Virus record (IMG/VR): IMGVR_UViG_3300032305_000524
Span: 1 to 40,138 of that record
DNA length: 40,138 bases
Strand: one strand, 5' to 3'
Origin: a virus
Taxonomy: Duplodnaviria; Caudoviricetes
Shown here one piece after another: positions 494-26,949 of the stretch; the first letter of the stretch is position 1; each line of letters opens with the position of its first letter. The notes beneath the pieces were generated by a model, which saw only the letters and a list, made by a program, of their open reading frames with translations, made no database searches and was not told where the DNA came from. The translations under genes and the position numbers were made by a program.

Positions 494-512
494 TTTAAGT
501 CTCCAAAAAAAT

Positions 513-1921: not shown

Positions 1922-1930
1922 GATTACTCC

Positions 1931-2335
1931 TTAGTTAGGGCGTTGGATACCACGAGGGTCTTGCACAACGGCTTGTATGGAATCATCGTTAATTAAACGC
2001 CATTCAGTGCCATGAATTTTCATGCGAGTGCCAGTGTTTGGGCGAACCAAAACAAAGTCACCAACTTTGCATGATGGACCAGATGGGAATCTGGCAGCGT
2101 CTTTAAACGCATCAGGACCAATCTTTGCAACAAACAACACGGGGGAGAGAAGCTCCTCGTGGTGCATAGCTGTGGCAGATTTTAAAATCCCTGTCTCGCT
2201 GAATTCTTCTTCAGCTTTAGGCAACATACACAAAATATGGTACGTCGCGGGGTCCGGCACTTGTTTGGCTTTTTCTTCAGCGGATGTGTTTAGCAATCCC
2301 GTCAGATCGACCGCACTAACGTCGAAATCAGTCAT
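1931..2335 (-). CDS. GroES-like co-chaperonin
   Basis: Motifs ETGIL, VAKIGPDA, CKVGDFVL, RLINDDSIQAVV match the Cpn10 fold; start trimmed to MTDF, which overlaps the upstream stop. Confidence 0.8.
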   Translation of the reverse strand: MTDFDVSAVDLTGLLNTSAEEKAKQVPDPATYHILCMLPKAEEEFSETGILKSATAMHHEELLSPVLFVAKIGPDAFKDAARFPSGPSCKVGDFVLVRPNTGTRMKIHGTEWRLINDDSIQAVVQDPRGIQRPN

Positions 2336-2522
2336 CGTCATAATCCTTAGTTTTTCGCACGAGGTCAGCAAGTTCATACTGCGCGGTTTGCAGACCTCGG
2401 ATAGTTCCGCACAGTTCTTTATAGTGCTCGTGGGATTTAGCTCCACCAGCGCTAATTACGTCAACCAACTGCTTGACGTGTTCGTTTAGTTTGCCGTCTA
2501 AAACTTCAAGCAGATTGGCCAT
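2328..2522 (-). CDS. Hypothetical protein
   Basis: 64-aa ORF with GGAG RBS directly after portal; YKELCGTIRGL helix. Confidence 0.7.
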   Translation of the reverse strand: MANLLEVLDGKLNEHVKQLVDVISAGGAKSHEHYKELCGTIRGLQTAQYELADLVRKTKDYDDD

Positions 2523-2524
2523 GA

Positions 2525-5086
2525 TTACTCCCTATTGCCTTGTAATAACTTTGTAAGTCTGTCCATCTCGGCATGCTCCAACTTCTGGCTATGTACTTGT
2601 CCGCCATGAGCCATCTTCTGTTGGACCTGCGCTTGTTGCTGCTGCATAGCTTGCTGTTGCTGGGCCTGAGCTTGTTCAAGCTCCATCCGTTTAGCAGCCA
2701 TCTCCATACCGTGTAACTCCTGCGCCTGCATAATTTCTTGCTGCAATCGCATTGATGCCATGGCTGGGTCTTCGCCTGTTCTCGCTGCACTTTCTTGCGC
2801 CTTGAGTGACAACTCCTCGGCCTTAAGCTGCAAGTCACCCTTGACCTTGAGCGCTTTAGTGTCAGCTTCTTGTTTCTTGATCGCCAACTCTGCTTGCTGC
2901 AACTGCATGACTGGGTCTTGCTGCATCTGCTGAGCTTGTTGGTTTGCCACCTGACCTTTGCTCGCAGCCAGCACTTGTTGTGCGCCTTGGGCAACCAGAC
3001 GTGACAACATAACTTCTGCATCTTCTGGCATTTGTTCGTCGGGTGGTGGCAATGGCACGCCAAGTTGCTCTTCCACTTTTTTGCGGTACGCAAACGCCAA
3101 GTGTTCTGAGAGGTGAGCTTGAATCTCGGCCATCATCTTCTGGGCTTGTGGGTTCTGACCAACCTGCGCCATGATAAGCGGGTCCTGCATCATTGATGTA
3201 TGTACAGAAATGTGTGCGTCGTGGTCTTGATAGATAAACGCTTTGGTCGGTTTGCCATTCAGGAACGCCATGTTTTCGCTGACAGGATCGCGTGGTGTCA
3301 TGTCGTCATCTGTAGGTACAAGTTTCTCAGCGTTCTTTACACCAAGCACCTCGATCATTTGGCGGTGCAATATCGGCAAGTCATAAATCTGCGGAGCCTG
3401 TTGCGCCAACTGCATCACCGCTTGGTACTGCATGATGCGCTGCGCCATCGTCGCGCTGTTCGGATCGCTGACTGGAATTACGTCCACCATGTCGTAATCT
3501 TCTTGCTTTGCCATGCGGTCGCCGCTTGATGGATCAAAGCTGTACTGATCTGGTGTGTAGTCGCGGATAATGTCACGCAAAAGTTTGAACTCTTGCTTCA
3601 TGCTGTAGTGCACGCGGGCCTGTACAGCAGACATTGTTTTTAGCTGACGCTCCAACAGAGCGAGCGTGGTACCTACCGGAGCATTCGCACTCATGTCACT
3701 GATGTTCATATCAGCAATAGAGCCTAAGCGTTTACCCTCGTCGGTGATCTGATTTAACAAGGCAAGTAAGACTTGTGATGGTTCTTTGTACGGCAACATC
3801 ATGATGTTGTCTTTGACTGCGCCGCTTGGCACATCTACATCACGGAACTCACCGGGGTTGATTGGTGTATCGTCACCCTTGATACGCAAGCCACGAGCTT
3901 TAAGTCCACCGGGCAAGTTAGCCAACGTACCAGCATCAACCAACTGACGGATGATAGAAGTACCTGCGCGTGCGTAGCCGCCGATCAAGTGGATCAAGCC
4001 AAGACCGTAAGCACCAAAGCCGGGTATGTATGTGTACTGTACGAAGTGATCGCGTTTTAATTTGCGCTTGTCTTCTGGGTTCCAGTTACGGCGAATGGCC
4101 AACACTTTGTTAGTGCCGCGATCAATTGTCACCACGTATGGCAGTGCAATCTCATCTTCATCCTCGTAACCCGGCAGGTCGTAGTCAACGTGAAGTTCCA
4201 GAATCTGATAGCGGTCGTCATCCGTAAGCGTAAAGCCTTGGTCTTCCGCTTTCTTCTTCTCAATATCTGTATGTATGACTTGCGGCTCACCCAACTCAAC
4301 GTCACGATAAAAGCCCGCTACCTGCAGCTTCTTCATGTCGTTCTTGGTCTTACGCATGATGTGTGCAACACGATCAGACGTCTTCAGGCTTGACGCGCCA
4401 TACGGAATAATGATGTCTTCCGCAGGTATAAACACCGCAATCTGGCGATTCAGACTGGGGTCAAAGTAAACTTTCTTGAACGCGCTACCAGCCAAACCAA
4501 GGGAGTACAGCATCTTCTCATGCTCAGGGCGATACTCAGACATCACCTCGGTCAACTGGTAATTCATGTCCTCTCGAACGCGCTCCGCCGCCTCTTCTTT
4601 AAGTTTATCAATTGCACCAATGATTTCCGTTTTGACAGGGCCTTGAGCCGGGAAAGTCTCAATGATAGTTTCGCTTTGGAAACGTACTGCGGCTTCTGTG
4701 AGTACAGTGGAGAATACCCCACAAGCTCCGAGCCAAGGCTCCGTTCTTTCTTCATACTTCATCCCCAAAACGTCTAGACCTTTGACATACATCTCAACCC
4801 AGTCTTTGCGGCTGCCAATGTCTGCATCTACCAGTTCAATCAAGTCACTGGCAAGTTTCTGCAACTCGCCCTCGTCCATCTCGTCAGCAAGGTTAGCGTC
4901 GAAGTCGTCGCTCTTATCGCCTGCAACAATCTCCATCAGGTCAATCTCAACTCCGTCCATACCGACGATCAAACCCTCAGGGTTCTCAATCTGAATCTCA
5001 ATGCCGGGACCCTCATCCAACTCAGGGGCCAGTGCATCCAACCCAAGCGGTGCTGGGTTTAGTGAAGGGAACATATTAGTAGCCAT
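2525..5086 (-). CDS. Portal protein (P22-like) with Gln-rich C-terminal extension
   Basis: 853 aa directly after TerL; GSAFKKVY, FYRD, GLGLIHLIGG, GTTLALLE motifs; coiled-coil Q-rich tail. Confidence 0.85.
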   Translation of the reverse strand: MATNMFPSLNPAPLGLDALAPELDEGPGIEIQIENPEGLIVGMDGVEIDLMEIVAGDKSDDFDANLADEMDEGELQKLASDLIELVDADIGSRKDWVEMYVKGLDVLGMKYEERTEPWLGACGVFSTVLTEAAVRFQSETIIETFPAQGPVKTEIIGAIDKLKEEAAERVREDMNYQLTEVMSEYRPEHEKMLYSLGLAGSAFKKVYFDPSLNRQIAVFIPAEDIIIPYGASSLKTSDRVAHIMRKTKNDMKKLQVAGFYRDVELGEPQVIHTDIEKKKAEDQGFTLTDDDRYQILELHVDYDLPGYEDEDEIALPYVVTIDRGTNKVLAIRRNWNPEDKRKLKRDHFVQYTYIPGFGAYGLGLIHLIGGYARAGTSIIRQLVDAGTLANLPGGLKARGLRIKGDDTPINPGEFRDVDVPSGAVKDNIMMLPYKEPSQVLLALLNQITDEGKRLGSIADMNISDMSANAPVGTTLALLERQLKTMSAVQARVHYSMKQEFKLLRDIIRDYTPDQYSFDPSSGDRMAKQEDYDMVDVIPVSDPNSATMAQRIMQYQAVMQLAQQAPQIYDLPILHRQMIEVLGVKNAEKLVPTDDDMTPRDPVSENMAFLNGKPTKAFIYQDHDAHISVHTSMMQDPLIMAQVGQNPQAQKMMAEIQAHLSEHLAFAYRKKVEEQLGVPLPPPDEQMPEDAEVMLSRLVAQGAQQVLAASKGQVANQQAQQMQQDPVMQLQQAELAIKKQEADTKALKVKGDLQLKAEELSLKAQESAARTGEDPAMASMRLQQEIMQAQELHGMEMAAKRMELEQAQAQQQQAMQQQQAQVQQKMAHGGQVHSQKLEHAEMDRLTKLLQGNRE

Positions 5087-5095
5087 TTAAAGTCC

Positions 5096-6619
5096 TTAGT
5101 AATACGCTTGGCGACGGCCCGCGTAATAGGGTTCATTATCCTCGTGGTCACTACTTAAGCGCAATAGCCCACCCTTGCGAATTCTCATCAACGCCAGTGT
5201 CATGGTGTCCACCTCGTCGTCATGCTCGCCTGCGGGAAATGCCAAAATCTCCTCCACAGTGGCCGCAGCCCACGCATTCTCGGGGAACCAAACGTGTCCT
5301 GACGCAAACATATCTGCCACGGCATTAAGCCTAGCAATTTTATCCTGACCCTTGCCGGGGCTGAAGTCCTGCACAAATATACCTGACCTGCGCATCTCGT
5401 CAATCAGCGGCTGACCACTGGCTTTAGCCTCGACGATCACACTGTCCGGCTCCCATATCTTGTACTGCTCGTGCGCCATGGCTTTTAGCTCAGGAAACTC
5501 GTATTTCCCCTTGACTTTGTTCAGCAGTATGACGTTCTGTGTGCCGTCTTCTTCACTTTCAAACACGCCCCACGTATGGCACACGGAAAAGTCAGATCGT
5601 TCCTTGGTTGTAAGCGCCGTATCAAACGCCTGCACCATAAAGTCAATTTTTGGCGGGTCATCCTTCTCCCACCAGCGTATCCAGTCCCGTTTTATGATCG
5701 CAGCCTCGGCTGCTGTTGGGTTTTGCTGGTATTGAGCGTACCACTGCCACATGATGTGGTGCATTGACGCCCGGGTTTGCTGCAAACTCTCGATTGACCA
5801 CTGTTCGGGCCAGATTGACTTCTCGTTATCCGTGCCTTCGTTCAAAATTGCAGGGAATTCAAAGGTTTCGTAGTTATCCCCGCCCTCATTCATGGCCGAG
5901 TCTTTGATAAGCCTGCCAATTAGGTCCCTCTGGTGCCATCTTGTGTGCAAAACACAAATTTTCCCGTCCGGCATGAGTCGAGTACGCAAACCAGCACTGA
6001 ACCACTCGTATGCATTGTCCAAAGATGTGGTGTTTCCGGCCTTAATGTCCTGCTCAGACAGCGGATCGTCGGCAATAATCAAGTGGGCACCACGACCAGC
6101 GAGCGCACCACCCACACCAATTGCAAAATACTCGCCACCTTTGGTCGTATTCCACTGCGCAGCAGCTTTTGCGTCGCTTGCAATGTTTGTCTCAGGAAAA
6201 ATTGCTTTGTATTCGGGCGTATTAATCAGATTTCGCACCTTGCGAGCCATGACAACCGCCAAATCTGCAGTGTGTGAGGCCACAATTACCTTGTGGTCAG
6301 GGTGTTTTCCCAAGTACCAAGCCGGATAGTAGATAGAAATCATCTGGGATTTACCCATACGAGGTGCCATTGACACGGCAATCCGGTTCTTGACGTTCTG
6401 TTCGACCTCCATCAGCAGGCTACCCAACCGTTTTAAGTGCGTACCAAACTTATAGTTAGTATCAATAGCAGCAATGAAAGATAGAAAGTCATTCTGGGCC
6501 AACTGCTGGCGCTTTCGGCCATCTAACTCCGCAAACATGGCAAGTAACTCCACTGCCTCGTCTGGAGGCAGCTTCTTAGAAATCCGCTCAATGATCTCTG
6601 GCGTTAGGGTTTGCTGCAT
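5096..6619 (-). CDS. terL: Terminase large subunit
   Basis: Walker A APRMGKS, Walker B LIIADD, coupling motif TRWH, nuclease motifs FDTA and HDDEVD. Confidence 0.95.
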   Translation of the reverse strand: MQQTLTPEIIERISKKLPPDEAVELLAMFAELDGRKRQQLAQNDFLSFIAAIDTNYKFGTHLKRLGSLLMEVEQNVKNRIAVSMAPRMGKSQMISIYYPAWYLGKHPDHKVIVASHTADLAVVMARKVRNLINTPEYKAIFPETNIASDAKAAAQWNTTKGGEYFAIGVGGALAGRGAHLIIADDPLSEQDIKAGNTTSLDNAYEWFSAGLRTRLMPDGKICVLHTRWHQRDLIGRLIKDSAMNEGGDNYETFEFPAILNEGTDNEKSIWPEQWSIESLQQTRASMHHIMWQWYAQYQQNPTAAEAAIIKRDWIRWWEKDDPPKIDFMVQAFDTALTTKERSDFSVCHTWGVFESEEDGTQNVILLNKVKGKYEFPELKAMAHEQYKIWEPDSVIVEAKASGQPLIDEMRRSGIFVQDFSPGKGQDKIARLNAVADMFASGHVWFPENAWAAATVEEILAFPAGEHDDEVDTMTLALMRIRKGGLLRLSSDHEDNEPYYAGRRQAYY

Positions 6620-7170
6620 CAGATTGCTTCGACGTCGCTAATATCTATCTGTACTTGGGACTTGGTTGGTTTAGGGTCTACAACTTCCGCTTCCAGCACC
6701 TTGGTCAGGCGTTCACGCAGCATTTGTTCCAACTCTTCCGTGGGCCGGTGGCGCATTGTAATTTCTGTCTTGTCTGTGAACAGCCCAACGTCGCTGATCT
6801 TGCCCAGCAGTTCCAATGACTTCATTCGTATGCGTGGGTCTGGGTTTGCAGTTTCTGCAAGTAGCTTATTAGTTACATAGGTTCGCATCTGCTGCGCCGA
6901 CTTCACAATTACCGTGTCGTATTCTGACAACAGAGACTGCAGATATACCACCATGCCGGGGGAAGACAAGTCCTCGTCTGATGCCAACTCGTTCCCAATG
7001 AACACCTCGCGGGCTTTGTGCTTGTCCGTTTCGGATATTTCGTTTGGGGATGGCAGATTGTTAGTGTCTACTAACGCAGCCATGGCTGCGGCCACGCGGG
7101 TCTCCAGCGACTCGAATGTCGGGGAGTAGTCCGCAAGCGGAATGTTGAAATCTATAACTGGTGTGTACAT
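6619..7170 (-). CDS. Putative terminase small subunit
   Basis: Abuts terL; helical RMKSLELLGKISDVGLF motif typical of TerS-position proteins; start uncertain (7170 or 7185). Confidence 0.6.
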   Translation of the reverse strand: MYTPVIDFNIPLADYSPTFESLETRVAAAMAALVDTNNLPSPNEISETDKHKAREVFIGNELASDEDLSSPGMVVYLQSLLSEYDTVIVKSAQQMRTYVTNKLLAETANPDPRIRMKSLELLGKISDVGLFTDKTEITMRHRPTEELEQMLRERLTKVLEAEVVDPKPTKSQVQIDISDVEAI

Positions 7171-7439
7171 AAGAGGGAATCGCACTCCTAGGGGTTGTGC
7201 AATTATATATGTAATTTTTTTCTTGTGTGTTTTATTTTTGATGGGGGGGCCTTTTCTGTGGAAGGGGGGTGGGTCTGGTAGTTGATATAGTTTTGTATGG
7301 CCGTGGTTTTATTTTGCTGCCAGAGGATTCAACGCTCAGCGTAAGGGGACGTGGGACTCCTAACGCCACCAGCTTGGGGTGGCGGGGCGGTGGGGTCAAA
7401 CCCTGCCGAAAACTATAAGGTTATACCTAAAGAAAAGGG

Positions 7440-7468
7440 TTGACAAAACTATAAAGTTGCTATACATT
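7440..7468 (+). promoter_or_regulatory. Sigma70-type promoter for first rightward operon
   Basis: TTGACA (7440-7445), 17 bp, TACATT (7463-7468); degenerate copy of the 22-bp motif upstream (7409-7428) and a half-site in the spacer. Confidence 0.7.
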
Positions 7469-7534
7469 ACACACATCGGTTAAGCAATTCGGTTTAGCCG
7501 ATATTTAAATCAACGCTATTCAAGGGAAACTAAA

Positions 7535-8074
7535 ATGGCACAATTTACGAAAATCCACGCATCGATTATCGGTGCATTTGCAACTGCTAAGGCTAAAGCT
7601 GACAAGCTGATCGCTGAGAGCATCACAAAACAAAATGCTGAAATCCAAAAATTGGTTGACGCACACGTTATCGCTTGCAGTACCACAAAAGCCGAATACC
7701 TGAAGGGTAATTCCAAAACCAATGAAGCAAGGGGCGAAGTAAAAGCATTGTTTGATTCGCTTGTCTCAAAAGAGTATATTAGCAAAAATTCAGCGCAACA
7801 ATACGCACAATGTTTTTGGATAGCGTTCGAAACGAACGTGCCGTTTTCCCGAGACCTTGCAAATAAAAAAGCCGAAGCAAAAGCCGAAGCAAACACAAAA
7901 GCCGAAGCTACGGCTAAAGCTGGAAAAGTAGAAGTTACTGATATGCCCGCTTTGATTGCCACATTACAAAAGGCTTTGCATCAATGTACCCTGTTAAATC
8001 AGAGCATGCTGAAGGCTTCGCTGATCGATGCTATTGTCGAATTTATCCCTGATTTCACCGAATCAGTTAAGTAA
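7535..8074 (+). CDS. Hypothetical early protein
   Basis: 179-aa ORF, AAGGGA RBS, Ala/Lys-rich KAEA repeats. Confidence 0.8.
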   Translation: MAQFTKIHASIIGAFATAKAKADKLIAESITKQNAEIQKLVDAHVIACSTTKAEYLKGNSKTNEARGEVKALFDSLVSKEYISKNSAQQYAQCFWIAFETNVPFSRDLANKKAEAKAEANTKAEATAKAGKVEVTDMPALIATLQKALHQCTLLNQSMLKASLIDAIVEFIPDFTESVK

Positions 8075-8534: not shown

Positions 8535-8558
8535 AGCCACCGCAAGGTGGCTTTTTTT
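8535..8558 (+). terminator. Intrinsic terminator
   Basis: AGCCACC-GCAA-GGTGGCT followed by T6. Confidence 0.9.
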
Positions 8559-8559
8559 C

Positions 8560-9260
8560 GCCCAAAATTTTTCCCAAAAATTTTCTCTGCGTGCGCTTCC
8601 ATTGTCCGTTTGGAAAACGTCATAGTAGTTAGGCGGTGCGGGAGAGCGAGCGCGCGAGTGCGTGTGCGTGAGTGAGGGAGAGCTTCGGGGCGACCAAGGG
8701 GACAAAAATCAGCAAAAGTTATAAGGTTATAACTTTCGGTCGGCACTACTATGATTTTACCCTGCGTTACAATGTAACAAAACACCCCCAGTTTGTTACA
8801 AAACTCTGTAACGTTGTTTTTTTGCAAATAGCCCCGCAAATGTAATACTAAGCGTTTCAAAAACTCAGAGAGAGAGATAGATATATATATATATTATATA
8901 TATGTTACATTGTAACAGTCTTTTTGGAGAACGAAGGTCAAAATTCTAAACGTTATAGGTCGCTTAATGTTTATGGTAACACCTATAACAAACTAAAGAA
9001 AAAAGATTTTAGGTCTTCATACCCCCAAATACCCTGTTACAGTGTAACCACGACCCATTTTATAGCCCCACTATATCCAAAACACCGCTAAGTTGTTGAT
9101 TTCATTAAGTACCCCCTACACCCCCATCGTAACAACCCCCCTGTAACATTTCCCACCCCTTTTGTAACATTGTAACAAGCACCCCCAAACCCCACAAAAG
9201 CCCCCGAAACTTATAACCTTATAACTTTTCATATATAATCCACCTATCACCAACCCAACC
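8560..9260. repeat. Repeat-rich non-coding block (GTTACA/TGTAAC repeats, (GA)n(TA)n tract, IHF site); putative origin or terminus element
   Basis: GTTACANTGTAAC at 8766, 8904, 9036; further TGTAAC/GTTACA at 8795, 8807, 9142, 9163, 9171; AT dinucleotide run ~8877-8903; no credible ORF. Confidence 0.6.
9089..9101 (-). promoter_or_regulatory. IHF binding site
   Basis: Reverse complement AATCAACAACTTA matches the WATCAANNNNTTR consensus exactly. Confidence 0.55.
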
Positions 9261-9271
9261 AAGGACTTACT

Positions 9272-9721
9272 ATGACACAAGACCTCTACACCCTAACGCT
9301 AAACTTCCCCACAGAAGTTGCAGACCGACTGGAGAACTCACACAAGAACGGCATCGAGGGAGCCACGACCCAAGCCATCAAGTTCTGGCTACAACTAGGC
9401 GACGACACATGGGAAACCATTGCAACCCAAGCAAACACCGAAGGCATGTCCCGCGCTGAGTTTGTCCGAAGAGCCGTTGCCAAACTGATGCAACCCGAAG
9501 CCCCTGCATATACCAACCTCAAGTCAGACATACCACTTGCTGAACGACGCAAGGCACGGAACGAAGACATTGCGTATCGGGCACTCAGAGGCGCACCACG
9601 CAAGGAACTTGCAACCCAATATGGCTTATCAGAAATACGCATACATCAGATCGTAGCTGCTGCAAAAAAGAAGCTAAACAAGGAAAAACTAGCCCAAGAA
9701 TGGACACCAGATGTGGACTAA
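9272..9721 (+). CDS. Transcriptional regulator: ribbon-helix-helix domain(s) plus C-terminal Mor-like HTH
   Basis: EGMSRAEFVRRAVAKL (CopG/RHH-like); RNEDI...RKELATQYGLSEIRIHQIV (Mor/HTH-like); AAGGA RBS. Confidence 0.7.
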   Translation: MTQDLYTLTLNFPTEVADRLENSHKNGIEGATTQAIKFWLQLGDDTWETIATQANTEGMSRAEFVRRAVAKLMQPEAPAYTNLKSDIPLAERRKARNEDIAYRALRGAPRKELATQYGLSEIRIHQIVAAAKKKLNKEKLAQEWTPDVD

Positions 9722-9738
9722 AAACTTATCAAAAACAC

Positions 9739-9767
9739 TTGACATAAACCTATAATTCTGGTATAAT
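9739..9767 (+). promoter_or_regulatory. Consensus sigma70 promoter with extended -10
   Basis: TTGACA, 17 bp, TATAAT with TGn; A-rich UP-like sequence upstream; motif half-site AAACCTATAA in spacer. Confidence 0.9.
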
Positions 9768-9773
9768 TGATTT

Positions 9774-10448
9774 ATCAAGTCGAGTAACGCCTCGGCTTGG
9801 TTTGTTCTTTAAAAATATATCAGTTAGGTTTTTGTGTATCTTGTAAAGTTATAACCTTATAACTTTCGTTCAGCCCACACAGGATACACAGACCTTCGAG
9901 CCGTCGCTGCATACATTGCAGAAGCCATACAGATTAGTGTCCAGTTCATACAAGAGTTGGTCGTATCCCGATGCCTCAATAGCCACCGCACCTCTTATGC
10001 GTGTTTCATATCCCATTCACTTGGGTTTCCCTGATTCCGAGAGTTTACTGTAAGTCCCCAAGGGTAGGTAGTGCCATGCCAGTTAGCTATTGTTGAGTAA
10101 AGATACTGAACCGCCAAAGATGTAAGTTACTTTTCTTCCTAGGTGAATAGACGTTGGGTTCAGCCCCAGTATTTTGATGGAGTACCTCCATAGGCTAGTG
10201 TCACACGAGTGAAAGTCAAAATGCAAAGCATACGCACACTACCTAAATGGGTGCAGTATTTGTATGCCAATCATACAAACTGCTCAGTGGAGTTTATGTA
10301 GCACCTCGGGATGCTACCGCTAAGACAACCATGGGAACACGGACTGACATGGGTCAGGATATACGTGAACGACAAACCCTATCGTAGTTTAAAGATACCT
10401 GTTTATCTTGTAGCCCTGCGAGTCAGGGCTATGTGATGCACAGCATCA
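9774..10448 (+). ncRNA. Putative large structured non-coding RNA (~670 nt)
   Basis: No ORF of 60 aa or more behind a perfect promoter; many stems, some with G-U pairs (9833-9844/9879-9890, 10177-10191, 10253-10283, 10298-10317, 10344-10357, 10411-10431, 10434-10448). Confidence 0.6.
9776..9815 (+). promoter_or_regulatory. boxB-like hairpin + boxA antitermination signal (rrn-leader type)
   Basis: CAAGTCGAG-TAACGC-CTCGGCTTG hairpin then TGTTCTTTAAAAA, close to rrn boxA TGCTCTTTAACA. Confidence 0.65.
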
Positions 10449-10480
10449 AACCTATAACCTTATAACTTTTGGAGAATGAT

Positions 10481-10726
10481 ATGAAAGTGTCCGAACTAAT
10501 TGCAGAACTAGAGTGTTACGACGGTGATGCCGAAGTACACATGGCGTATGGGGCAGGCGACTACTGGCGTACAACGCTAGCCCCAAGGGTGGGTCGAACC
10601 TGTCAAGGTAAGGTGCAGAAGTCTGAGTATCACCAGACCTACCGCTTGTATGAACGTGACAACGACGAACCCGAGGACGATGACGACGAGCCAGTTTGTC
10701 AAGTTGTGGTGATTGAACACTTATAA
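10481..10726 (+). CDS. Hypothetical protein
   Basis: MKVSELIAELE... with GGAG RBS fused to repeat; stop lies inside next repeat copy. Confidence 0.8.
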   Translation: MKVSELIAELECYDGDAEVHMAYGAGDYWRTTLAPRVGRTCQGKVQKSEYHQTYRLYERDNDEPEDDDDEPVCQVVVIEHL

Positions 10727-10749
10727 CCTTATAACTTTTGGAGAACAAA

Positions 10750-11082
10750 ATGAAAGTACGCAAGAACAAACACAAGATACTTGACCGCATGGCTAACCCA
10801 TCGTGGAAAGAGGACTTGAACAAGATGTGGTTTATCCGAGACACGACACCATGCAAATCGTATAGCCCTTGGTGTCCTGACTGTAACGCAAGGTTGTTTT
10901 ACAAGACGATGCAACGCTTCCCCTACTCATACGAAGAGTGGCGTGTGTTTGAGTTACGCCAAGCAGCACCCGAGGAAGCAGAGTTCAACCGACTTGAAGA
11001 CGAACGCAACCGAGGGATTAAAGAACTAAGCGATGCCGCTAAATTTCGGGAACTATCCAACCAACTGGAGGACTTTAAATGA
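10750..11082 (+). CDS. Hypothetical protein
   Basis: MKVRKNK... GGAG RBS after repeat; CxxC motif. Confidence 0.75.
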   Translation: MKVRKNKHKILDRMANPSWKEDLNKMWFIRDTTPCKSYSPWCPDCNARLFYKTMQRFPYSYEEWRVFELRQAAPEEAEFNRLEDERNRGIKELSDAAKFRELSNQLEDFK

Positions 11083-11231
11083 TTGAACCCAGCTACACAG
11101 AGACACGGCACTACATCCTGCTCAAGAACCTACTCATTGCTATTGCTCATGATCGTGATGCCTTACGCATTATGGCTACCAAGAAAGAAATGGCAGAAGC
11201 CGTAGCTGCAATGAAACATTTGTGGGAGTAA
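11079..11231 (+). CDS. Small hypothetical protein (50 aa)
   Basis: ATGA overlap with upstream stop, GGAGG RBS; MIEPSYTETRHYILLKNLL...KHLWE; below ORF-track cutoff. Confidence 0.65.
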   Translation: MIEPSYTETRHYILLKNLLIAIAHDRDALRIMATKKEMAEAVAAMKHLWE

Positions 11232-11233
11232 GT

Positions 11234-11440
11234 ATGACACGCCTATTGCAAGACGAGATGGAAGGCTACGAATGTCAACGGCTTAGCCGTTGGTTCGCAA
11301 GCCGTATAGATGCCAAACAAATTGTAAGGAAACACCATGAGCGAAAACTTATACCTACCAATCTGCACTTGTTGTTATGCGACACGGGTCGAACCCCAAC
11401 GCAAACACATGAAACGACCCACATGCCTAGCATGTGGTGA
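11234..11440 (+). CDS. Hypothetical protein
   Basis: GGAG RBS; MTRLLQDEMEGYECQRLSRWFASRIDA; 3' part overlaps next gene. Confidence 0.55.
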   Translation: MTRLLQDEMEGYECQRLSRWFASRIDAKQIVRKHHERKLIPTNLHLLLCDTGRTPTQTHETTHMPSMW

Positions 11441-11558
11441 AAGCGAAGCACGCAAAGTAAACCATTGCATCGTGCCTATGAACAAGTCCAACTGTATTGT
11501 GGTAACTGACCTATCAATACTACGCCAGTTGAACCCCAAGCTAACAACAAACTTATAA
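11337..11558 (+). CDS. Small C4 zinc-finger protein (DksA/TraR-like finger)
   Basis: CTCC...TCLACGE; AAGGA RBS; stop inside repeat copy. Confidence 0.65.
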   Translation: MSENLYLPICTCCYATRVEPQRKHMKRPTCLACGESEARKVNHCIVPMNKSNCIVVTDLSILRQLNPKLTTNL

Positions 11559-11582
11559 CCTTATAACTTCTGGAGAAACACA

Positions 11583-12341
11583 ATGAGCATGTACTCAAAA
11601 CTTTCAATGCACTTATCACGCCACATGTACAAGCGTGGCAAGAACAAAGGCGACGCCCCTGCCAATGCGCACCGACGTGCAATGGACCACTATCGTGTGG
11701 TCAAGGGTAACGACGACACATACCGCATCCGCATGCATAGCACGGACATCATCACCGCTTACCCCAATGGCGATGTGAAGATCGACACTAACGGATGGCA
11801 CACACATAACACCACGATCATTAGACTGAACGAAGCGTTTGGTTTCTTCGAAGGTGTGGGCGTGGGCATGAGTAAGCGTAGCATCTTGAGCTATTCGCAA
11901 CCTGTGCTTCGTGTCGGCACTAAACTTTATTATTACTATGACGGCATCACACTCAATGCCCAAGGCGAAGTCATCACGCCACTTCAAGCGTTTGAGCAGA
12001 AGCGAGTAGATAGAGCAGCGACCAAGGAACTAACCAATGAACTGCAAGAGTCAGGGTTCACCGATGCGTTTAAGTTACTGTATGCCGTAGCTACACCCGA
12101 CGATATAGAACGTGACAACTACGGGATGTTTGGTGTACGACTACCCGATGCACTCACCGATAACGCACGAGCCGATCAATGGAAAGTAATTATTGCTCGC
12201 AGTAAATTCGAACGTCAGTACGCATACCCGCAGTACAAGTACATAGAGAAATCAAATGCAACGGCATGTTGGGCATCCATCATGTCTCAATGCAAAAAGA
12301 ACATGTACATTGTGTCTCGCTCTGAGACCTTTGTCTTGTAA
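11583..12341 (+). CDS. Hypothetical phage protein
   Basis: 252-aa ORF with GGAG RBS fused to repeat. Confidence 0.85.
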   Translation: MSMYSKLSMHLSRHMYKRGKNKGDAPANAHRRAMDHYRVVKGNDDTYRIRMHSTDIITAYPNGDVKIDTNGWHTHNTTIIRLNEAFGFFEGVGVGMSKRSILSYSQPVLRVGTKLYYYYDGITLNAQGEVITPLQAFEQKRVDRAATKELTNELQESGFTDAFKLLYAVATPDDIERDNYGMFGVRLPDALTDNARADQWKVIIARSKFERQYAYPQYKYIEKSNATACWASIMSQCKKNMYIVSRSETFVL

Positions 12342-12404
12342 ACGTGGCGTAAGCCAACTTAAGTAAACTTATAACCTTATAACTTTCAATTCAAGGAAAT
12401 CAAA

Positions 12405-13472
12405 ATGAACCTGTCTATCAATCTCAAACAAGCATCGACCCTCATTCGTAATGTGGGTACAACAAACACAGTCCTACTGCGTGGTCAGCCGGGTGTGGGC
12501 AAATCGTCCATCCTTGCGACACTAGGTAAAGAGCTACCTGACTATCAGATGTGCTACATCGACTGTGCAAACCTAGACCTCGGTGACTTGGCAATGCCTG
12601 TCATTGACCGAGAGAACATGACCACATCGTATGCACCCAATGTGCGTTTCGGTATCGGTCGAAATCAAACCCGCCCTGTTGCGCTAATGCTCGACGAGTT
12701 GGGTAAATCACTGCGACCAGTGATGAACATGTTGTTGCCGACTATCCTTGAGCATCGTGTAGGTGATGTGCTTCTACCTACTGGCTCGATTGTATTTGCA
12801 ACGACCAACCTAGATACAGATGGTGTGGGTGATAACATCCCTGCCCATGCCTACAACCGCATGACTGTGGTAAACCTAGCCAACCCAACTGTAGAGCAGT
12901 GGCTCGAGTGGGCATCCGACAACGACATAGCCCCCGAGGTGATGGCATTTGCCAAGCAGTATCCGCAAGTGTTCGACTGCTACACCGACCTCGACCCTAA
13001 GGCTAAGAACCCCTACATCTTCAACCCATTGACGGGCAACACCAAGGCATACTGCTCGCCTCGTTCACTCGAGAAAGCATCTAACCTTATCAAGATGCGT
13101 CATGTATTGGGTGATGCCTTGTTGCCTGCATTGGCAGGTACTGTGGGTGAAGCAGCAGCTAGAGACATGGATGCACTCATTCACTTGGCAGATCAGTTGC
13201 CCTTGTATGAGAACATTGTGAAGGAACCATACAAAGCCAAGGTTCCAACAAGTGCAGGTGCGTTGTTTATTCTCGCCTTCATGTTGGCAGGTCGTGTCGA
13301 TGCTAAGTCTATCGACGCAGTGATGGACTACTCAGATCGTATGGCTAACGAATCGTTCGAGGCACATGCTTTATTCATTACCTCATTGGCATCCAACAAA
13401 GCCAAGGTAGGTATGGCATGTGGTAGCCGTAAGTTCACGACCCAAGCAGCCAAGCTTGGTAAGTTCTTCTAA
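12405..13472 (+). CDS. MoxR-like AAA+ ATPase
   Basis: Walker A GQPGVGKS, Walker B LMLDE, sensor I ATTN, Arg finger NR, sensor II SPRS. Confidence 0.9.
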   Translation: MNLSINLKQASTLIRNVGTTNTVLLRGQPGVGKSSILATLGKELPDYQMCYIDCANLDLGDLAMPVIDRENMTTSYAPNVRFGIGRNQTRPVALMLDELGKSLRPVMNMLLPTILEHRVGDVLLPTGSIVFATTNLDTDGVGDNIPAHAYNRMTVVNLANPTVEQWLEWASDNDIAPEVMAFAKQYPQVFDCYTDLDPKAKNPYIFNPLTGNTKAYCSPRSLEKASNLIKMRHVLGDALLPALAGTVGEAAARDMDALIHLADQLPLYENIVKEPYKAKVPTSAGALFILAFMLAGRVDAKSIDAVMDYSDRMANESFEAHALFITSLASNKAKVGMACGSRKFTTQAAKLGKFF

Positions 13473-13492
13473 ACTTATAAGGTTATAACTTT

Positions 13493-13582
13493 ATGTTTAC
13501 ACCTTGGGAACGCTTCGAGCGTTTGATCTTAGCCCTAGCCGTTATCGTGCTAGTCCTTGACTTATTCTATTGGAGACCGTGA
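13493..13582 (+). CDS. Small single-pass membrane peptide (29 aa)
   Basis: MFTPWERFERLILALAVIVLVLDLFYWRP; fills the gap exactly, TGATG coupling to next gene. Confidence 0.65.
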   Translation: MFTPWERFERLILALAVIVLVLDLFYWRP

Positions 13583-13755
13583 TGCTTATCGTAGAACGAA
13601 CATCTAATGGGCAGAGCATTGTCGTTATCAAAAAAGATTGGCATCCCAATCGTATCGGCAAGGCATACCAACGCCCAATGCAAAACAACATGCAGTCCCA
13701 TGACGCATGGAGATTACAAACCGCTTACTTAAACAAACAAGGGAAACAATCATGA
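13582..13755 (+). CDS. Hypothetical protein
   Basis: MLIVERTSNG... GGAG RBS, coupled at both ends. Confidence 0.65.
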   Translation: MLIVERTSNGQSIVVIKKDWHPNRIGKAYQRPMQNNMQSHDAWRLQTAYLNKQGKQS

Positions 13756-14351
13756 GCAACATGTACGACATCGCAAGACAACTGCAAGCCCCCGGTGTAC
13801 TCACCACGGCAACCTTTAACCCAACACGTTTGACTAAGACGCTACGTAACTTGGTGCGCAAGAGTATTGCGTCAGGCAAGCACAACGGTGGGTGGTCAAG
13901 TCAGACTAAAGGGGTGCGCAACCTCGTCTTTAAGTTAGCGGGTGAAACGCCTGTGATTTACGCTGAGCCTGCGCATGGTAGCTATCTATCTTTTCGGTCA
14001 TCACGAGATATTAACCCCGAGCTACGCCTTGAGATTATTGGACTGCTTGAGGCAGATTGCTCGCTCTCTAAGATGAACTACGAAGAAGAGAAAAAGAATT
14101 ACTACAAGACCACATACGCTGAGTTTGTAAAAAACATGGATGATAGGTTTGATACAAACATCCAACGCCTTAACGATATGGGTAAGAACCCACACTACTC
14201 AATGGTGATACGCAACAAAACACTACGAGAGCAATTAGTTACTGCTTTCCTTACACAACGAACACCCGAAGAGGTGGCATTAGCTGAGCGCATAGCTTCG
14301 CTACTAGATAGGGATGAAGAGTTCCCTATCCCGACACATCACAACTTTTGA
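13752..14351 (+). CDS. Hypothetical protein
   Basis: MSNMYDIAR... ATGA overlap; ends at repeat copy. Confidence 0.8.
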   Translation: MSNMYDIARQLQAPGVLTTATFNPTRLTKTLRNLVRKSIASGKHNGGWSSQTKGVRNLVFKLAGETPVIYAEPAHGSYLSFRSSRDINPELRLEIIGLLEADCSLSKMNYEEEKKNYYKTTYAEFVKNMDDRFDTNIQRLNDMGKNPHYSMVIRNKTLREQLVTAFLTQRTPEEVALAERIASLLDRDEEFPIPTHHNF

Positions 14352-14385
14352 AAACTTATAACCTTATAACTTCTGGAGAAATCAA

Positions 14386-15558
14386 ATGAACGTACAAGAT
14401 CGAATCAAGAAAGCTCACATCGCTATCATGCAACACAAAAAGTTCTGTGTGTATAGCGGTATCCTTGCGTGTGGCAAGGTGCATGTCAATGACGACGTAC
14501 CTACCGCAGCTACCAACGGTTGGGATGTGATCTACAACCCTGCCTTCATCGAAGAACACATGAAGACCGACCCCGAGTTGCGCTTCCTCATCTTGCATGA
14601 GGGTCAGCACAAAGCATATCGTCACTTGCAAGTATGGTCTGCATTGCATGACGAGGATGCTCAGTTGGCTAACATCGCAGCAGATCACTTCGTTAACTTA
14701 TCCTTAGTGGATATGGATGATGGCGAGGGGTTCATCAAGATGCCTGAGTTGGGTGTGCAACCTGATGCCAAGTATCGTGGATGGTCGGTCAAGCAAATCT
14801 TCGAAGACCTCAAGCAAGAGGAAGAAGAAGGCGGGGGTGGTGGCGGTGGCGAGGGTGGGCAAGGGTTCGATGAGCATGACTGGGCTAATGCAACAAGCGG
14901 TGACCCTGCTAAAGATGCCGAGCGTGGTAATGAGATTCAACGAGCCATTCGTCAGGGTGAGATCGTGCGTCGCAAAATGCAAGGCAAAGGTGCAGGCGAT
15001 GCAGATGGTGCGTTCGGTGACTTGTTGCAACCCAAGATTGATTGGAAGAAAGTCTTGCGTGACTTCGTTACTGAGACATGCGCAGGTCGTGACGAGTCAT
15101 CATGGCGTAAGCCCAATCGTAGGTTTTTGAGCTACGACGTTTACATGCCCTCTATGGTAGGCACAACTATGACGGAGTTGGTGATCGGGTTTGACACGTC
15201 GGGTTCTTGTTTTGGTGGTGATGAAATGACTGCGTTCGTATCCAACATCAAGACCATCATCGAGGATGTCAAGCCAACCAAGACACACGTTATCTATTGG
15301 GACACTCAGGTAGCAGGGCATCAGACATTTGAAGATGGTCAGTTTGCCGTAGCCGACATGAAACCCAAAGGCGGTGGTGGTACAGATGGCTCTGTGTTAT
15401 TTGAATACTTGCGTGAACAACGTATCAATCCACAAGCTATTGTGCAGTTTACCGATGGCTATGTAGGTGACTGGGGTAACACCAATGTACCTACCTTGTG
15501 GGCTATCACAACCGATGTGGTTGCACCTTTCGGTACGACGGTTCGTGTCGAAGTTTAA
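14386..15558 (+). CDS. DUF2201-type metallopeptidase + VWA domain protein (MoxR partner)
   Basis: PTAATNG, zincin HEGQH, MIDAS DTSGS, GGGGT, FTDG. Confidence 0.9.
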   Translation: MNVQDRIKKAHIAIMQHKKFCVYSGILACGKVHVNDDVPTAATNGWDVIYNPAFIEEHMKTDPELRFLILHEGQHKAYRHLQVWSALHDEDAQLANIAADHFVNLSLVDMDDGEGFIKMPELGVQPDAKYRGWSVKQIFEDLKQEEEEGGGGGGGEGGQGFDEHDWANATSGDPAKDAERGNEIQRAIRQGEIVRRKMQGKGAGDADGAFGDLLQPKIDWKKVLRDFVTETCAGRDESSWRKPNRRFLSYDVYMPSMVGTTMTELVIGFDTSGSCFGGDEMTAFVSNIKTIIEDVKPTKTHVIYWDTQVAGHQTFEDGQFAVADMKPKGGGGTDGSVLFEYLREQRINPQAIVQFTDGYVGDWGNTNVPTLWAITTDVVAPFGTTVRVEV

Positions 15559-15590
15559 AACTTATAACCTTATAACTTTTGGAGAAAACC

Positions 15591-15959
15591 ATGGGATATA
15601 GATCAGATGTGCAGGCACTTATTTACCCTGCAAACGGTGACACCAACTTGTTGGAGTACAACAAGCTTAAATTGCTATTCAACACTACGTTCAAGAATGT
15701 GTTTGAGGCGTGGGGCGAGGATTACTTCAGTTGGAATGATGCGCATCGTGTGCTTAAGTTCTCTGCTAACTCGGTTAAGTGGTATGACTCGTACCCCGAA
15801 GTTCAGACGTTTGTTACGTTCTTAACTGATGTAGCTGGGCTTGGCTACGAGTACGAGTTCCTTCGTCTTGGTGAGGATGACGAAGATGTAGAGGATGACC
15901 GCACAGGCGATGCTGAAGGGTTTATGTATGTGCAACGAACAATAGAGGTGTCATTTTGA
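15591..15959 (+). CDS. Hypothetical phage protein
   Basis: MGYRSDV...VKWY...FLRLGEDDED; GGAG RBS after repeat. Confidence 0.85.
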   Translation: MGYRSDVQALIYPANGDTNLLEYNKLKLLFNTTFKNVFEAWGEDYFSWNDAHRVLKFSANSVKWYDSYPEVQTFVTFLTDVAGLGYEYEFLRLGEDDEDVEDDRTGDAEGFMYVQRTIEVSF

Positions 15960-16225
15960 AATTTAAGATGACCATCAATGGGCATAGCGTTTTGGTAGAT
16001 GCAAGGCAACTTGAAATCCTTACTGACACGTTGTCATTTGCCGAACACTTAACTGAAACTCATGTGGGCAACAACCAAGGCTCGCAAGGGTATCAGAGCG
16101 CATTTGTTCCTGTAATTAAACCAGTCGTAACACACGAGATATTCACTGTAGCACCAGTGAACCAAGACTACATCGACACAATCAAACTGTCGATGAAGCT
16201 AAATAACAAACCTATAACCTTATAA
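15956..16225 (+). CDS. Hypothetical protein
   Basis: TTG start with GAGG RBS, overlaps upstream stop; stop inside repeat copy. Confidence 0.7.
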   Translation: MKFKMTINGHSVLVDARQLEILTDTLSFAEHLTETHVGNNQGSQGYQSAFVPVIKPVVTHEIFTVAPVNQDYIDTIKLSMKLNNKPITL

Positions 16226-16239
16226 CTTTCGGAGAAACC

Positions 16240-17166
16240 ATGAACTACTACACAATCGAAACAGAGAAGCCTATTGCAGGCGTCGCACGTTCCGCCATGA
16301 TGGTGGACTTAAACATCGCAGTCTACTCGGGTCGCAAGCAAGACAAGAGTACGCAAGCCGAGGTCACCAATGCCAAGGGGTCAGGCTCCAAGAAAGCAGC
16401 GTCGGTGTACAAGAACTTGTTTGCTGAGTGCAAAGAGTTGGAAGCTATCACCAAGTTTCAAGCTCGTGCCCGAGCCGAACACTATCGCTTGACTCTCCCA
16501 TGGAATGACCAAGGTGCAAGACTGTTGCCCACTGCAGCCCTGCTTGAGTATCAAAAGGTTATGAACAAACATAACACCGAGTTTAATCGTTTGGTAGATG
16601 CGTTCTTGGACAAGTACGAGACACTCGTAGCAGGGGCAGCGTTCCAACTTGGTACATTGTTTGATCGCAGTGAGTACCCGAGCAGGGGCAAGGTGGCTCA
16701 GCGTTTTCGTATGGAGGCATCGTTCACCCCCTTGCCTACTGGCGGTGACTTCCGACTTGATGTGGAGAGCGAGGTACAACGCAACCTGATCGCCCAATAC
16801 GAAGAGAAGCTTGATGCCAAGCTGAAGGCAGCAAACCAAGACTCATGGACTCGTTTGTATAACGCTATCAGTAAGTTGAGTGACCGCTTGACTGTCGATG
16901 AGGATGGCAAGAAGCGTACGTTCCACGACACAACGGTGACCAATGCCGTTGACTTGTGTGAGTTGTTGCAGGTCATGAATATTACTAACGACCCTGCGTT
17001 GACGAAAGCTTCACGTAAGCTTGAGGAGGTATTGTCTGGGGTAACACCTAAAGAATTGCGTGAAGAAGATAGCACTCGTGCTTTAACTAAGATCAAGGTG
17101 GATGAAATCCTCGGCGCATTTGATTGGGGGGTAGACGATGGGGAAGATGAAGGACAAGTATCTTGA
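16240..17166 (+). CDS. DUF3150-like protein
   Basis: HYRLTLPW..GARLLP, LFDRSEYP, MNITNDP motifs; commonly linked to MoxR/VWA loci. Confidence 0.65.
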   Translation: MNYYTIETEKPIAGVARSAMMVDLNIAVYSGRKQDKSTQAEVTNAKGSGSKKAASVYKNLFAECKELEAITKFQARARAEHYRLTLPWNDQGARLLPTAALLEYQKVMNKHNTEFNRLVDAFLDKYETLVAGAAFQLGTLFDRSEYPSRGKVAQRFRMEASFTPLPTGGDFRLDVESEVQRNLIAQYEEKLDAKLKAANQDSWTRLYNAISKLSDRLTVDEDGKKRTFHDTTVTNAVDLCELLQVMNITNDPALTKASRKLEEVLSGVTPKELREEDSTRALTKIKVDEILGAFDWGVDDGEDEGQVS

Positions 17167-17518
17167 TATACAAACAATGTTGGAGGAACAGGGGTATGAC
17201 ATGAGAAAAGACGACGTTAGATTTAGTGATGCCCAACGCTTGTTGGAAAACAAACTAGGCTACAACAACCAAAACGATATGTATGAATGCAGATACGAAG
17301 AGCGTGATGGCGACTACACGCTTAAACGATGGCGGGATGGGCATGAGGAAGCCTCTCGTGGTCTTATACAAGACATACCTGATTGGCTAGATCAAATCAG
17401 ATCAGTCGCAATGGTAGGTGGGCATCTAAAGCGTGTAACTGTGCCTCCGCCTGACAACATCATGTGGTTTACAACCGATGATGACGGAAACTTACTTAAC
17501 TTTATGGAGCTTCGATGA
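17138..17518 (+). CDS. Hypothetical protein
   Basis: 126-aa ORF in operon. Confidence 0.7.
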   Translation: MGKMKDKYLDIQTMLEEQGYDMRKDDVRFSDAQRLLENKLGYNNQNDMYECRYEERDGDYTLKRWRDGHEEASRGLIQDIPDWLDQIRSVAMVGGHLKRVTVPPPDNIMWFTTDDDGNLLNFMELR

Positions 17519-17688
17519 ACTATGACAACTTGACCGATAAAGAACTAATCCGCGTTGCCGATGGGCAATCGGGGTTAATCAAAGTCTTATCTGAAAGGTT
17601 GGAGATGCGAATGCGTGACGTGGAAGATTTGATTCGCACCATACCTGACCCTAAACAACTTAACTTATTTGAGGATGACGATGCCTGA
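17515..17688 (+). CDS. Small protein with C-terminal sliding-clamp-binding-like motif QLNLF (57 aa)
   Basis: GGAG RBS, ATGA overlap; MNYDNLTDKELIRVAD...DPKQLNLFEDDDA. Confidence 0.7.
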   Translation: MNYDNLTDKELIRVADGQSGLIKVLSERLEMRMRDVEDLIRTIPDPKQLNLFEDDDA

Positions 17689-18220
17689 CATACAAACAGA
17701 AATGCAAAAGATATTGCATGCATGGGAACAACCAGAAACAACTGAACAACCAAAGGAATTAACCGTGTTCAAACCTACAAACAACGTATCACAACAAACC
17801 TTTAACTTTGTGCGAGACAACGCGGGGTGTACTCGAGCACACGCCATTCAGAAGCTTGTGCAAAGTGGACATAAGAAATCATCTGTGACATCCTTGATAG
17901 GGCAGATGCTTCGACAAGGACACATAACTAAAAACAACTACGGCATGCTATACCCCAACGGCGACGAGTACAGACCTATTAAATCAGCTAAGGTTACTGC
18001 CAAGCGAGAAGCTAAGGTAAAGAAAGCCAAAAGTTATAAGGTTATAACTTCTAAGACAACTGAGCCTAGCGCAGAGGCATTGGGACTAGCTGCATTGGCA
18101 CTTGACCACAAACCCGACATTCGTACAAACATTGACATCATCATGGATACAGTGAGTCTTAACGATGCGCATGAGTTGTATCGTCGCCTGCACCTGTACT
18201 TCGGTGGCTTGGGTAAATGA
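17681..18220 (+). CDS. Putative winged-helix DNA-binding protein
   Basis: TFNFVRDNAGCTR...SVTSLIGQMLRQGHI; Lys-rich linker; GAGG RBS. Confidence 0.6.
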   Translation: MPDIQTEMQKILHAWEQPETTEQPKELTVFKPTNNVSQQTFNFVRDNAGCTRAHAIQKLVQSGHKKSSVTSLIGQMLRQGHITKNNYGMLYPNGDEYRPIKSAKVTAKREAKVKKAKSYKVITSKTTEPSAEALGLAALALDHKPDIRTNIDIIMDTVSLNDAHELYRRLHLYFGGLGK

Positions 18221-23674: not shown

Positions 23675-23704
23675 GCCCAGTAGCAGTGCTACTGGGCTAT
23701 TTTT
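23675..23704 (+). terminator. Intrinsic terminator-like hairpin
   Basis: GCCCAGTAGC-AGT-GCTACTGGGC then TATTTTT. Confidence 0.7.
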
Positions 23705-25279: not shown

Positions 25280-25296
25280 ATTTGACAGTGTATAAT
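25269..25296 (+). promoter_or_regulatory. Sigma70 promoter
   Basis: TTGACA, 16 bp, TATAAT. Confidence 0.75.
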
Positions 25297-26941: not shown

Positions 26942-26949
26942 TCCCCGTG

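What the first reader, a model, noticed from the sequence alone, without database searches (positions are those of the whole stretch)
9774..10448. Candidate ~670-nt ornate non-coding RNA behind the most consensus-like promoter
Seen: an ORF-free stretch in an otherwise gene-dense genome, starting at a perfect TTGACA-17-TGnTATAAT promoter and packed with stems: 9833-9844/9879-9890, 9907-9921, 10106-10112/10157-10163, 10177-10191, 10253-10283, 10298-10317, 10344-10357, 10392-10409, 10411-10431, 10434-10448. GTTCAGCCC occurs twice (9868, 10158), so CTGAAC (10106) has two possible partners, allowing a pseudoknot or switch. The region ends exactly at a 22-bp repeat copy. Known: large structured RNAs of similar size (GOLLD, ROOL) occur in phages/prophages with unknown function. 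I cannot assign it to a family; it may be new.
Basis: partly seen in the sequence, partly recalled or inferred. Interest (0 to 1): 0.85.

Follow-up and report, generated by a model that had tools for sequence, protein, structure and literature searches.

The report
Pseudoknotted RNA leading phage early operon
This gene-free stretch encodes a conserved, pseudoknotted RNA of no catalogued family, found in dozens of uncultured phages between their strongest promoter and first early gene; host enzymes likely cut it free as a stable ~660-base molecule, predicted to act on host proteins early in infection.

Summary
Real and apparently a new RNA class. The stretch folds far better than shuffles (z -6.1). 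Homologues sit at the same place in 49 of 53 related phage loci with enough upstream DNA. In 45 aligned sequences, 47 pairs are 92% paired and 38 show double changes; 14 column pairs pass a tree-aware null. The constant part is a pseudoknot core of about 80 nt (9899-10168, split in the window by a 200-nt insert); a second domain (10238-10388) is usual but optional. The locus is therefore a T7-type early leader (promoter, boxA, RNase III hairpin, first gene) into which an ornate RNA has been inserted. Lake and river RNA-seq contigs cover it and start 9-15 nt after the predicted start, a weak hint given how the runs were chosen. No Rfam family matches. The proposed CTGAAC switch is not conserved. 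Best guess: a released, stable, trans-acting RNA (0.45); main rival: cis-acting antiterminator (0.3). Function is untested.

The parts
9272..9721 (+). Upstream gene, 149 aa, weak ribbon-helix-helix plus helix-turn-helix similarity; candidate binder of the palindromic repeat (inferred)
   Evidence: Sub-threshold PHROG/Pfam/NCBIfam hits; homologue upstream of the RNA promoter in 30 loci
9739..9767 (+). Consensus sigma70 promoter with extended -10; predicted start about 9773-9774
   Evidence: all 44 full-length homologues begin with TTGACA
9777..9798 (+). 5' hairpin (boxB-like position)
   Evidence: 313 of 338 cells paired, 68 double changes
9804..9814 (+). boxA, perfect match to GYTCTTTAANA
   Evidence: consensus from PMC5725501 passages; 34 of 60 homologues perfect, 55 of 60 within one mismatch, background 47 of 3000 windows
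9845..9866 (.). Copy of the genome's 22-bp palindromic repeat (likely DNA operator) inside the leader
   Evidence: leader palindrome matches each genome's own repeat, mean 9.2 vs 0.1 copies for other types, 41 loci
9899..10168 (+). Constant pseudoknot core: PK 9900-01/10163-64; Pa 9902-05/10150-53; Pb 9907-21; Pv 9924-26/10142-44; Pc 10155-58/10165-68
   Evidence: core only 76-85 nt in compact homologues
9933..10134 (+).
10169..10224 (+). Helix Pd with an E-loop-like internal loop (motif name recalled)
   Evidence: N-N positions U-U 27, A-A 12 of 67
10238..10388 (+). Second domain: Pe 10238-42/10384-88, conserved internal loop, Pe2 10249-51/10377-79, Pf 10253-83, optional hairpin 10288-10331, Pg 10335-70 with a G.A/A.G swapping pair
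   Evidence: motifs found in 58 of 67 cores with enough downstream DNA; 2 of the 9 misses (L005, L039) are regex misses (alignment)
10401..10442 (+). Long irregular hairpin resembling T7 RNase III sites; predicted single cut near 10434/10435
   Evidence: cut position inferred from recalled T7 sites
10448..10476 (+). Repeat copy and ribosome-binding site of the first early gene (10481-10726)

Best explanation
The stretch is a conserved, pseudoknotted RNA at the 5' end of the phage's early operon, which host RNA polymerase likely makes in large amounts from a consensus promoter, host Nus factors likely escort through boxA, and host RNase III likely cuts free as a stable ~660-nt RNA that would act in trans as a decoy or scaffold for a host protein. 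Shown: promoter, boxA, covarying structure, position, RNA-seq contigs over it. Inferred from T7 and rRNA: Nus loading (protects the long untranslated stretch from Rho, aids folding) and a single RNase III cut near 10434 that leaves a protective 3' hairpin. Guessed: the trans target. Step odds: real structured RNA 0.97, functional boxA 0.9, RNase III release 0.8, job done in trans 0.5.
For: Structure: 47 pairs in 12 helices, 92.2% paired, 38 pairs with double changes, slid controls 32-44%; 14 of 35,778 column pairs at E<0.05 under a tree-aware null, 13 canonical and one G.A/A.G swap; G-U alternations fix the + strand. boxA in 55 of 60. T7 has the same punctuation: perfect boxA at 813 after promoter A3 and a hairpin at about 858-898 before gene 0.3; that window is the best match in T7 1-7800 for our 43 hairpins (z 4.0), and three more intergenic T7 hairpins rank 3, 5 and 6. 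T7's boxA is called an anti-termination element (PMC3709561, passages). One A-U pair is invariant in 43 of 43 hairpins and 42 of 43 fold as a long stem; extra copies precede the ATPase gene in three relatives. Single RNase III cuts leave protective 3' hairpins (PMC1540722, passages). All 6 RNA runs laid (of 18 listed) have contigs inside the RNA; X2 has one 594-nt contig 9783-10378; X1, X2, X3 begin 9783-9789. Both ends carry hairpins, and the 350-600 nt of conserved fold is far more than T7 needs for read-through.
Against: No target or partner was found. The RNA runs were picked because they hold this stretch, are contigs only, and cannot show strand, level or ends; contigs stop 50-120 nt short of the predicted cut. 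The window's own hairpin aligns poorly to T7's (score 18 vs 34-44 for three homologues), the profile search gave T7 only 6.6 bits, E 0.61, and two non-site windows ranked 2 and 4. The RNA is always in cis at the operon head, as an antiterminator would be, and lambda also places an RNase III site after its nut site (recalled), so processing does not prove a trans role. Two complete relatives lack it. Host unknown.
Confidence: 0.45

Rival explanations
1. The pseudoknot core is a cis-acting processive antiterminator (like HK022 put, EAR or conAn RNA) that, with the boxA-bound Nus factors, modifies host RNA polymerase to read through the ~20-kb early/replication operon.
For: Core lies 35-93 nt after boxA in all 78 unique cores counted with promoter and boxA (these were selected for having both). 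Always + strand, 1.3-5.2 kb upstream of the ATPase. Intrinsic-terminator-like sites sit about 30 nt before the helicase (W, G001, G005) and primase (W, G001, G002, G003) genes. The second domain is dispensable. RNA-based processive antitermination is known (PMC8191782, introduction).
Against: Hairpin-plus-U-tract elements also precede helicase and primase in G007 and G008, which lack the RNA. boxA occurs alone at another early promoter in L030, L230, L233. T7 reads through with boxA alone. boxA-core spacing is loose and the core takes inserts up to 200 nt.
Confidence: 0.3
2. The RNA self-assembles into a multimeric RNA-only particle like GOLLD or ROOL, and that assembly is its function.
For: Size (about 420-770 nt), phage origin, modular peripheral domains, variable linker, GNRA-type loops and a receptor-like internal loop (motif names recalled). 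GOLLD and ROOL form cages (PMC12286853, passages).
Against: No Rfam similarity; no tRNA in the window; no covarying kissing loop other than the 2-bp pseudoknot. Overlaps with the best explanation rather than excluding it.
Confidence: 0.1
3. The RNA is a ribozyme (self-cleaving, splicing or circularising), perhaps derived from a group II intron scaffold.
For: Invariant unpaired bases; a GC dinucleotide at the core's 5' end pairs with an AGC loop as in the epsilon-epsilon' contact; E-loop and receptor-like loop (resemblances recalled).
Against: No D5/D6 in five near-complete genomes and no D1-D4 match (only 1 of 7 D1D4 models tested this way, all by cmscan). Domain order differs from canonical and circularly permuted introns (PMC8637638, parts 1-2 of 9). 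No RNase P match. No joint inside the RNA in six RNA runs, though contigs drop rare forms.
Confidence: 0.07
4. It is a riboswitch-like or CTGAAC-driven switch that controls the first gene, or only a 5' stabiliser.
For: Pseudoknotted ~80-nt core of aptamer size upstream of a ribosome-binding site; alternative short hairpins flank the 3' stem in the window.
Against: The proposed switch is kept in 2 of 28; the first gene differs between phages; the core is 280 nt from the binding site and separated by the predicted cut.
Confidence: 0.08

Closest known systems
Phage T7 early leader (promoters A1-A3, boxA, RNase III site before gene 0.3)
   Same: Strong host promoter, hairpins, perfect boxA, RNase III-type hairpin with similar sequence, then first gene.
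   Different: T7 has about 35 nt between boxA and the hairpin; here 350-600 nt of covarying pseudoknotted structure. Model R1 finds nothing in T7.
GOLLD (RF02032) and ROOL (RF03087)
   Same: Large ornate phage RNAs of unknown function with variable linkers (PMC12286853, passages).
   Different: No model match; those lie often near tRNA islands, this one heads an early operon with no tRNA in the window.
rrn leader boxB-boxA and Nus complex
   Same: Hairpin followed by GYTCTTTAANA near the start of a long untranslated RNA.
   Different: No rRNA, no leader-trailer helix enclosing the RNA.
RNA antiterminators put (HK022), EAR, conAn
   Same: Structured RNA at the head of a long operon with internal terminators.
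   Different: No Rfam match; read-through untested; terminators persist in relatives lacking the RNA.
Group II and circularly permuted group II introns
   Same: Recalled module resemblances (AGC loop contact, E-loop, receptor-like loop).
   Different: No D5/D6, different helix order.

Membership tests
GOLLD | Match to RF02032 conserved 3' region | tested here: not met
   0 of 5 related genomes at E<=10 (no control genome over the cut-off)
ROOL | Match to RF03087 | tested here: not met
   0 of 5, where no control rang either, so that call alone is weak
GOLLD/ROOL | Multimeric nanocage | not testable with these tools
   needs cryo-EM or mass photometry
Group II / CP group II intron | Catalytic D5 and branch D6 | tested here: not met
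   RF00029 over cut-off in 0 of 5 genomes, controls 5 of 14
Group II / CP group II intron | D1-D4 scaffold and domain order | tested here: not met
   RF02001 0 of 5; helix order differs from PMC8637638 parts 1-2
RNase P RNA | P4 core and RF00010 match | tested here: not met
   0 of 5, controls 8 of 14 over cut-off
boxA / Nus-factor site | GYTCTTTAANA near the transcript start | tested here: met
boxA / Nus-factor site | NusB-NusE binding | not testable with these tools
   needs binding assay or ChIP
T7-type RNase III site | Long irregular intergenic stem with internal loop and conserved pairs | tested here: met
   sequence similarity modest for the window's own copy
T7-type RNase III site | Cleavage by RNase III | not testable with these tools
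   contigs cannot show ends
RNA processive antiterminator (put/EAR/conAn) | Located before terminators that must be read through | tested here: inconclusive
   present but also in RNA-lacking relatives
RNA processive antiterminator (put/EAR/conAn) | Read-through depends on the RNA in cis | not testable with these tools
   needs transcription assay

The most novel reading that the evidence does not exclude
A new class of large phage RNA that uses the host's rRNA-style Nus machinery to fold a pseudoknotted core and RNase III to release it in the first minutes of infection, where it disarms a host defence or binds RNA polymerase as an RNA-only takeover factor; an elaborated, functional form of the T7 leader long treated as a by-product.
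Probability: 0.3. Interest if true: 0.9.

Novelty: new variant of a known kind. Interest (0 to 1): 0.74.

Why it matters
Large bacterial and phage RNAs with conserved tertiary structure are few and mostly of unknown function. This one comes with about 90 distinct core sequences, a minimal ~80-nt core, natural deletion variants and defined predicted ends, so it can be made and tested at once. Either leading outcome is of interest: a new RNA-only antiterminator working beside boxA, or a released early RNA aimed at the host. It also shows that the T7-type leader between boxA and the first RNase III site can carry a complex RNA.

Tried and rejected
Rfam 15: no gathering hit in the window; E<=10 gave only a chance asX2 match on the - strand and nothing at the locus in 7 related loci, one of them (L040) the divergent short form. 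blastn against cultured phages and plasmids: only promoter-sized or chance matches. Model R1 (5' core): nothing in DSL-LC04, HTVC027P, T7, a Fluviibacter MAG or G012, phiEco32 60,000-77,554 or 151 genomes of the MAG's class (no positive control, so 'not found in those searched'). R1 is weak on long-insert forms (it splits the window's copy, and missed L234). Two motif scans mostly returned unrelated loci. tRNA-binding idea (UGGN as in T-box/RNase P): the N covaries as U-U/A-A with the opposite strand, which fits a structured loop; dropped. Pairing of the conserved CUCC bulge with GGAG/GGUG or with ribosome-binding sites: no covariation at E<0.05. L229 lacks both RNA and boxA at its promoter but is 23% complete, so it shows nothing. 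Lack of RNA-seq cover on flanking genes is no evidence. Host from MAG bins is contradictory (Aquiluna, Fluviibacter, Rhodobacteraceae). Print searches that found no description of this RNA; Fremin 2023 (PMC10690425) supplements 3-6 had no motif hit, but files 1-2 and mmc1-3 could not be read, so a fragment (their motifs are 29-151 nt) may be listed there.

Full report
Setting. The window is a 40-kb virus record, 63% complete. It has terminase, portal and virion genes on the - strand and an early/replication arm on the + strand from about 10.5 to 30 kb: ATPase, VWA protein, DNA polymerase A, exonuclease, SNF2 helicase, primase. The closest cultured terminases are 42-45% identical (HTVC027P, HTVC023P, DSL-LC04). 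The finding lies at the head of the + arm.

Observation. The promoter is 12/12 at 9739-9767. The region has no ORF of 60 aa and its small ORFs are not kept in relatives. It folds with z -6.06. Rfam has no match.

Homologues. Loci were collected through the ATPase gene and by DNA motifs. Of 79 viral loci, 53 have at least 4.3 kb upstream of the ATPase; 49 of these carry the RNA at E<1e-10. Of the other four, L234 has a remote copy (E 0.0045), L230 a shorter divergent RNA at the same place, and L231 and L233, both from complete genomes, have none that I could detect. In the metagenome scan 59 of 118 loci were strong homologues; the scan stopped after 35 of 64 parts. 44 full-length sequences had mean identity 58% (37-97%). 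A descriptor search gave 78 unique cores with promoter and boxA upstream and 14 others, of which I judge 12 true. Promoter-to-end length in 60 sequences is 454-802 nt.

Structure. On a 45-sequence alignment of the core (homologues chosen by me, leaving out divergent or poorly aligning ones such as L032, L033, L035, L040), 47 pairs in 12 helices are 92.2% paired, 38 pairs have double changes, and slid controls fall to 32-44%. The structure was derived from these sequences, and I dropped two misaligned Pd pairs, one non-pair and a weak 2-bp hairpin, so I also ran a tree-aware null: 14 of 35,778 column pairs reach E<0.05, 13 canonical and one G.A/A.G swap at 10342/10363. The pseudoknot pair 9900/10164 is G-C in 31, A-U in 13 and G-U in 1 of 45 (E 0.1). 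Many proposed pairs are too invariant to score, and Pv2, Pd3 and Pe2 have no pair at E<0.05. The constant unit is PK-Pa-Pb-Pv-Pc, 76-85 nt in compact forms, with inserts up to 200 nt at the tip of Pv. The second domain is lost or replaced in at least seven sequences of two types and in L258.

Punctuation. At +31 the window has a perfect boxA by the consensus in PMC5725501 (passages seen); 34 of 60 homologues are perfect and 55 within one mismatch, against 47 of 3000 random windows. The 3' hairpin forms a long irregular stem in 42 of 43 homologues with one invariant A-U pair. T7 shows a perfect boxA at 813 behind A3 and a hairpin before gene 0.3. Scoring our 43 hairpins along T7 1-7800 puts that hairpin first (z 4.0) and three other intergenic hairpins at ranks 3, 5 and 6; ranks 2 and 4 are not sites and the hairpin near 6430 was not in the top ten. 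That these T7 hairpins are RNase III sites, their names and the cut position are recalled; the record does not annotate them. PMC3709561 (passages) calls T7's boxA an anti-termination element; PMC1540722 (passages) states that internal loops limit RNase III to one cut and leave a protective 3' hairpin. Extra copies of our hairpin lie just before the ATPase gene in L185, L190 and L196, as expected of processing sites. The locus is thus a T7-type leader with an ornate insert.

Expression. 18 RNA runs, 16 of them labelled lake, freshwater or river, hold part of the stretch, none half of its words. I laid 6 of the 18. On the window, contigs cover 9789-10059 (X1), 9783-10378 (X2), 9825-10140 with 36 further letters before (X3) and 9836-10115 (X4). 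On the closer relative L162, X2's 594-nt contig differs at 3 letters and starts about 9 nt after the predicted start; X5 and X8 also have contigs inside the RNA; run X19, of unrecorded kind, covers all 30 bins. No joint was seen within the RNA in the RNA runs. The runs were chosen for holding this stretch and are contigs, so this shows presence in RNA libraries and a weak hint of the start, not level or strand.

Mechanism. Shown: conserved fold, promoter, boxA, position. Inferred: Nus loading and RNase III release of an RNA of about 660 nt with hairpins at both ends. What the fold does is open. For a cis antiterminator: position, and terminator-like sites just before helicase and primase. Against: similar sites in the two relatives without the RNA, boxA alone at other early promoters, loose spacing (35-93 nt). 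For a trans role: protected ends, more conserved structure than read-through needs, strongest promoter at the earliest time. I commit to the released trans-acting RNA at 0.45, antiterminator 0.3, cage 0.1, switch 0.08, ribozyme 0.07.

Known families and novelty. Models of GOLLD, ROOL, RNase P and group II D5/D6 and D1-D4 find nothing at the locus in five near-complete relatives. Circularly permuted introns need D5-D6 at the 5' end (PMC8637638, parts 1-2 of 9); absent here. GOLLD and ROOL are often near tRNA islands (PMC12286853, passages); the window has no tRNA. Paper searches (listings and abstract starts only unless named) found no description; part of the Fremin 2023 supplement could not be read. 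Earlier notes of this scan report other boxA-led phage RNAs, unchecked; model R1 found no match in phiEco32's right end. Verdict: a real, apparently new RNA class inside a known leader design; interest 0.74.

Noticed in passing
window 8715-18051 (12 sites), also 7409-7428: 22-bp palindromic repeat, in both orientations, mostly just before ribosome-binding sites of early genes. Its arm sequence changes between phages but is shared within each genome (9.2 vs 0.1 copies), and copies even sit inside RNA loops in some homologues. Likely a DNA site for a phage protein, perhaps ORF 9272-9721.
   Followed up: partly
window 23675-23697 and 26947-26978: Strong intrinsic-terminator-like hairpins about 30 nt before the helicase and primase start codons, conserved across relatives including those without the RNA; possible attenuators of replication genes.
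   Followed up: partly
window 8560-9270: Low-complexity gap after a terminator (8535-8552) with AT run, C runs and repeated GTAAC/GTTAC words; several related contigs begin 450-500 nt upstream of the promoter. Candidate genome end or origin; G008 has tandem repeats in the same place.
   Followed up: no
L030:347, L230:3876, L233:3508: boxA behind a second early promoter, without a structured RNA, ahead of an alanine-rich early gene.
   Followed up: partly
L230:6404-6800 and L213:1480-1930: A shorter, different-looking folded RNA at the same position with boxA-like site and the 3' hairpin; model R1 does not match it. May be a second family.
   Followed up: partly
window 25269-25296: Second 12/12 sigma70 promoter upstream of a small ORF and the 297-aa gene, with no boxA near it.
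   Followed up: no
window 30084-36806: 2240-aa virion-side protein with an LPD38 domain and an 18-nt tandem repeat at 33797-33976.
   Followed up: no
L010:6188-6214 and L026:7722-7777: Weak Rfam matches (nuoG E 1.6, fluoride riboswitch E 0.07 at 22.5 bits, below cut-off) in early regions of relatives.
   Followed up: no
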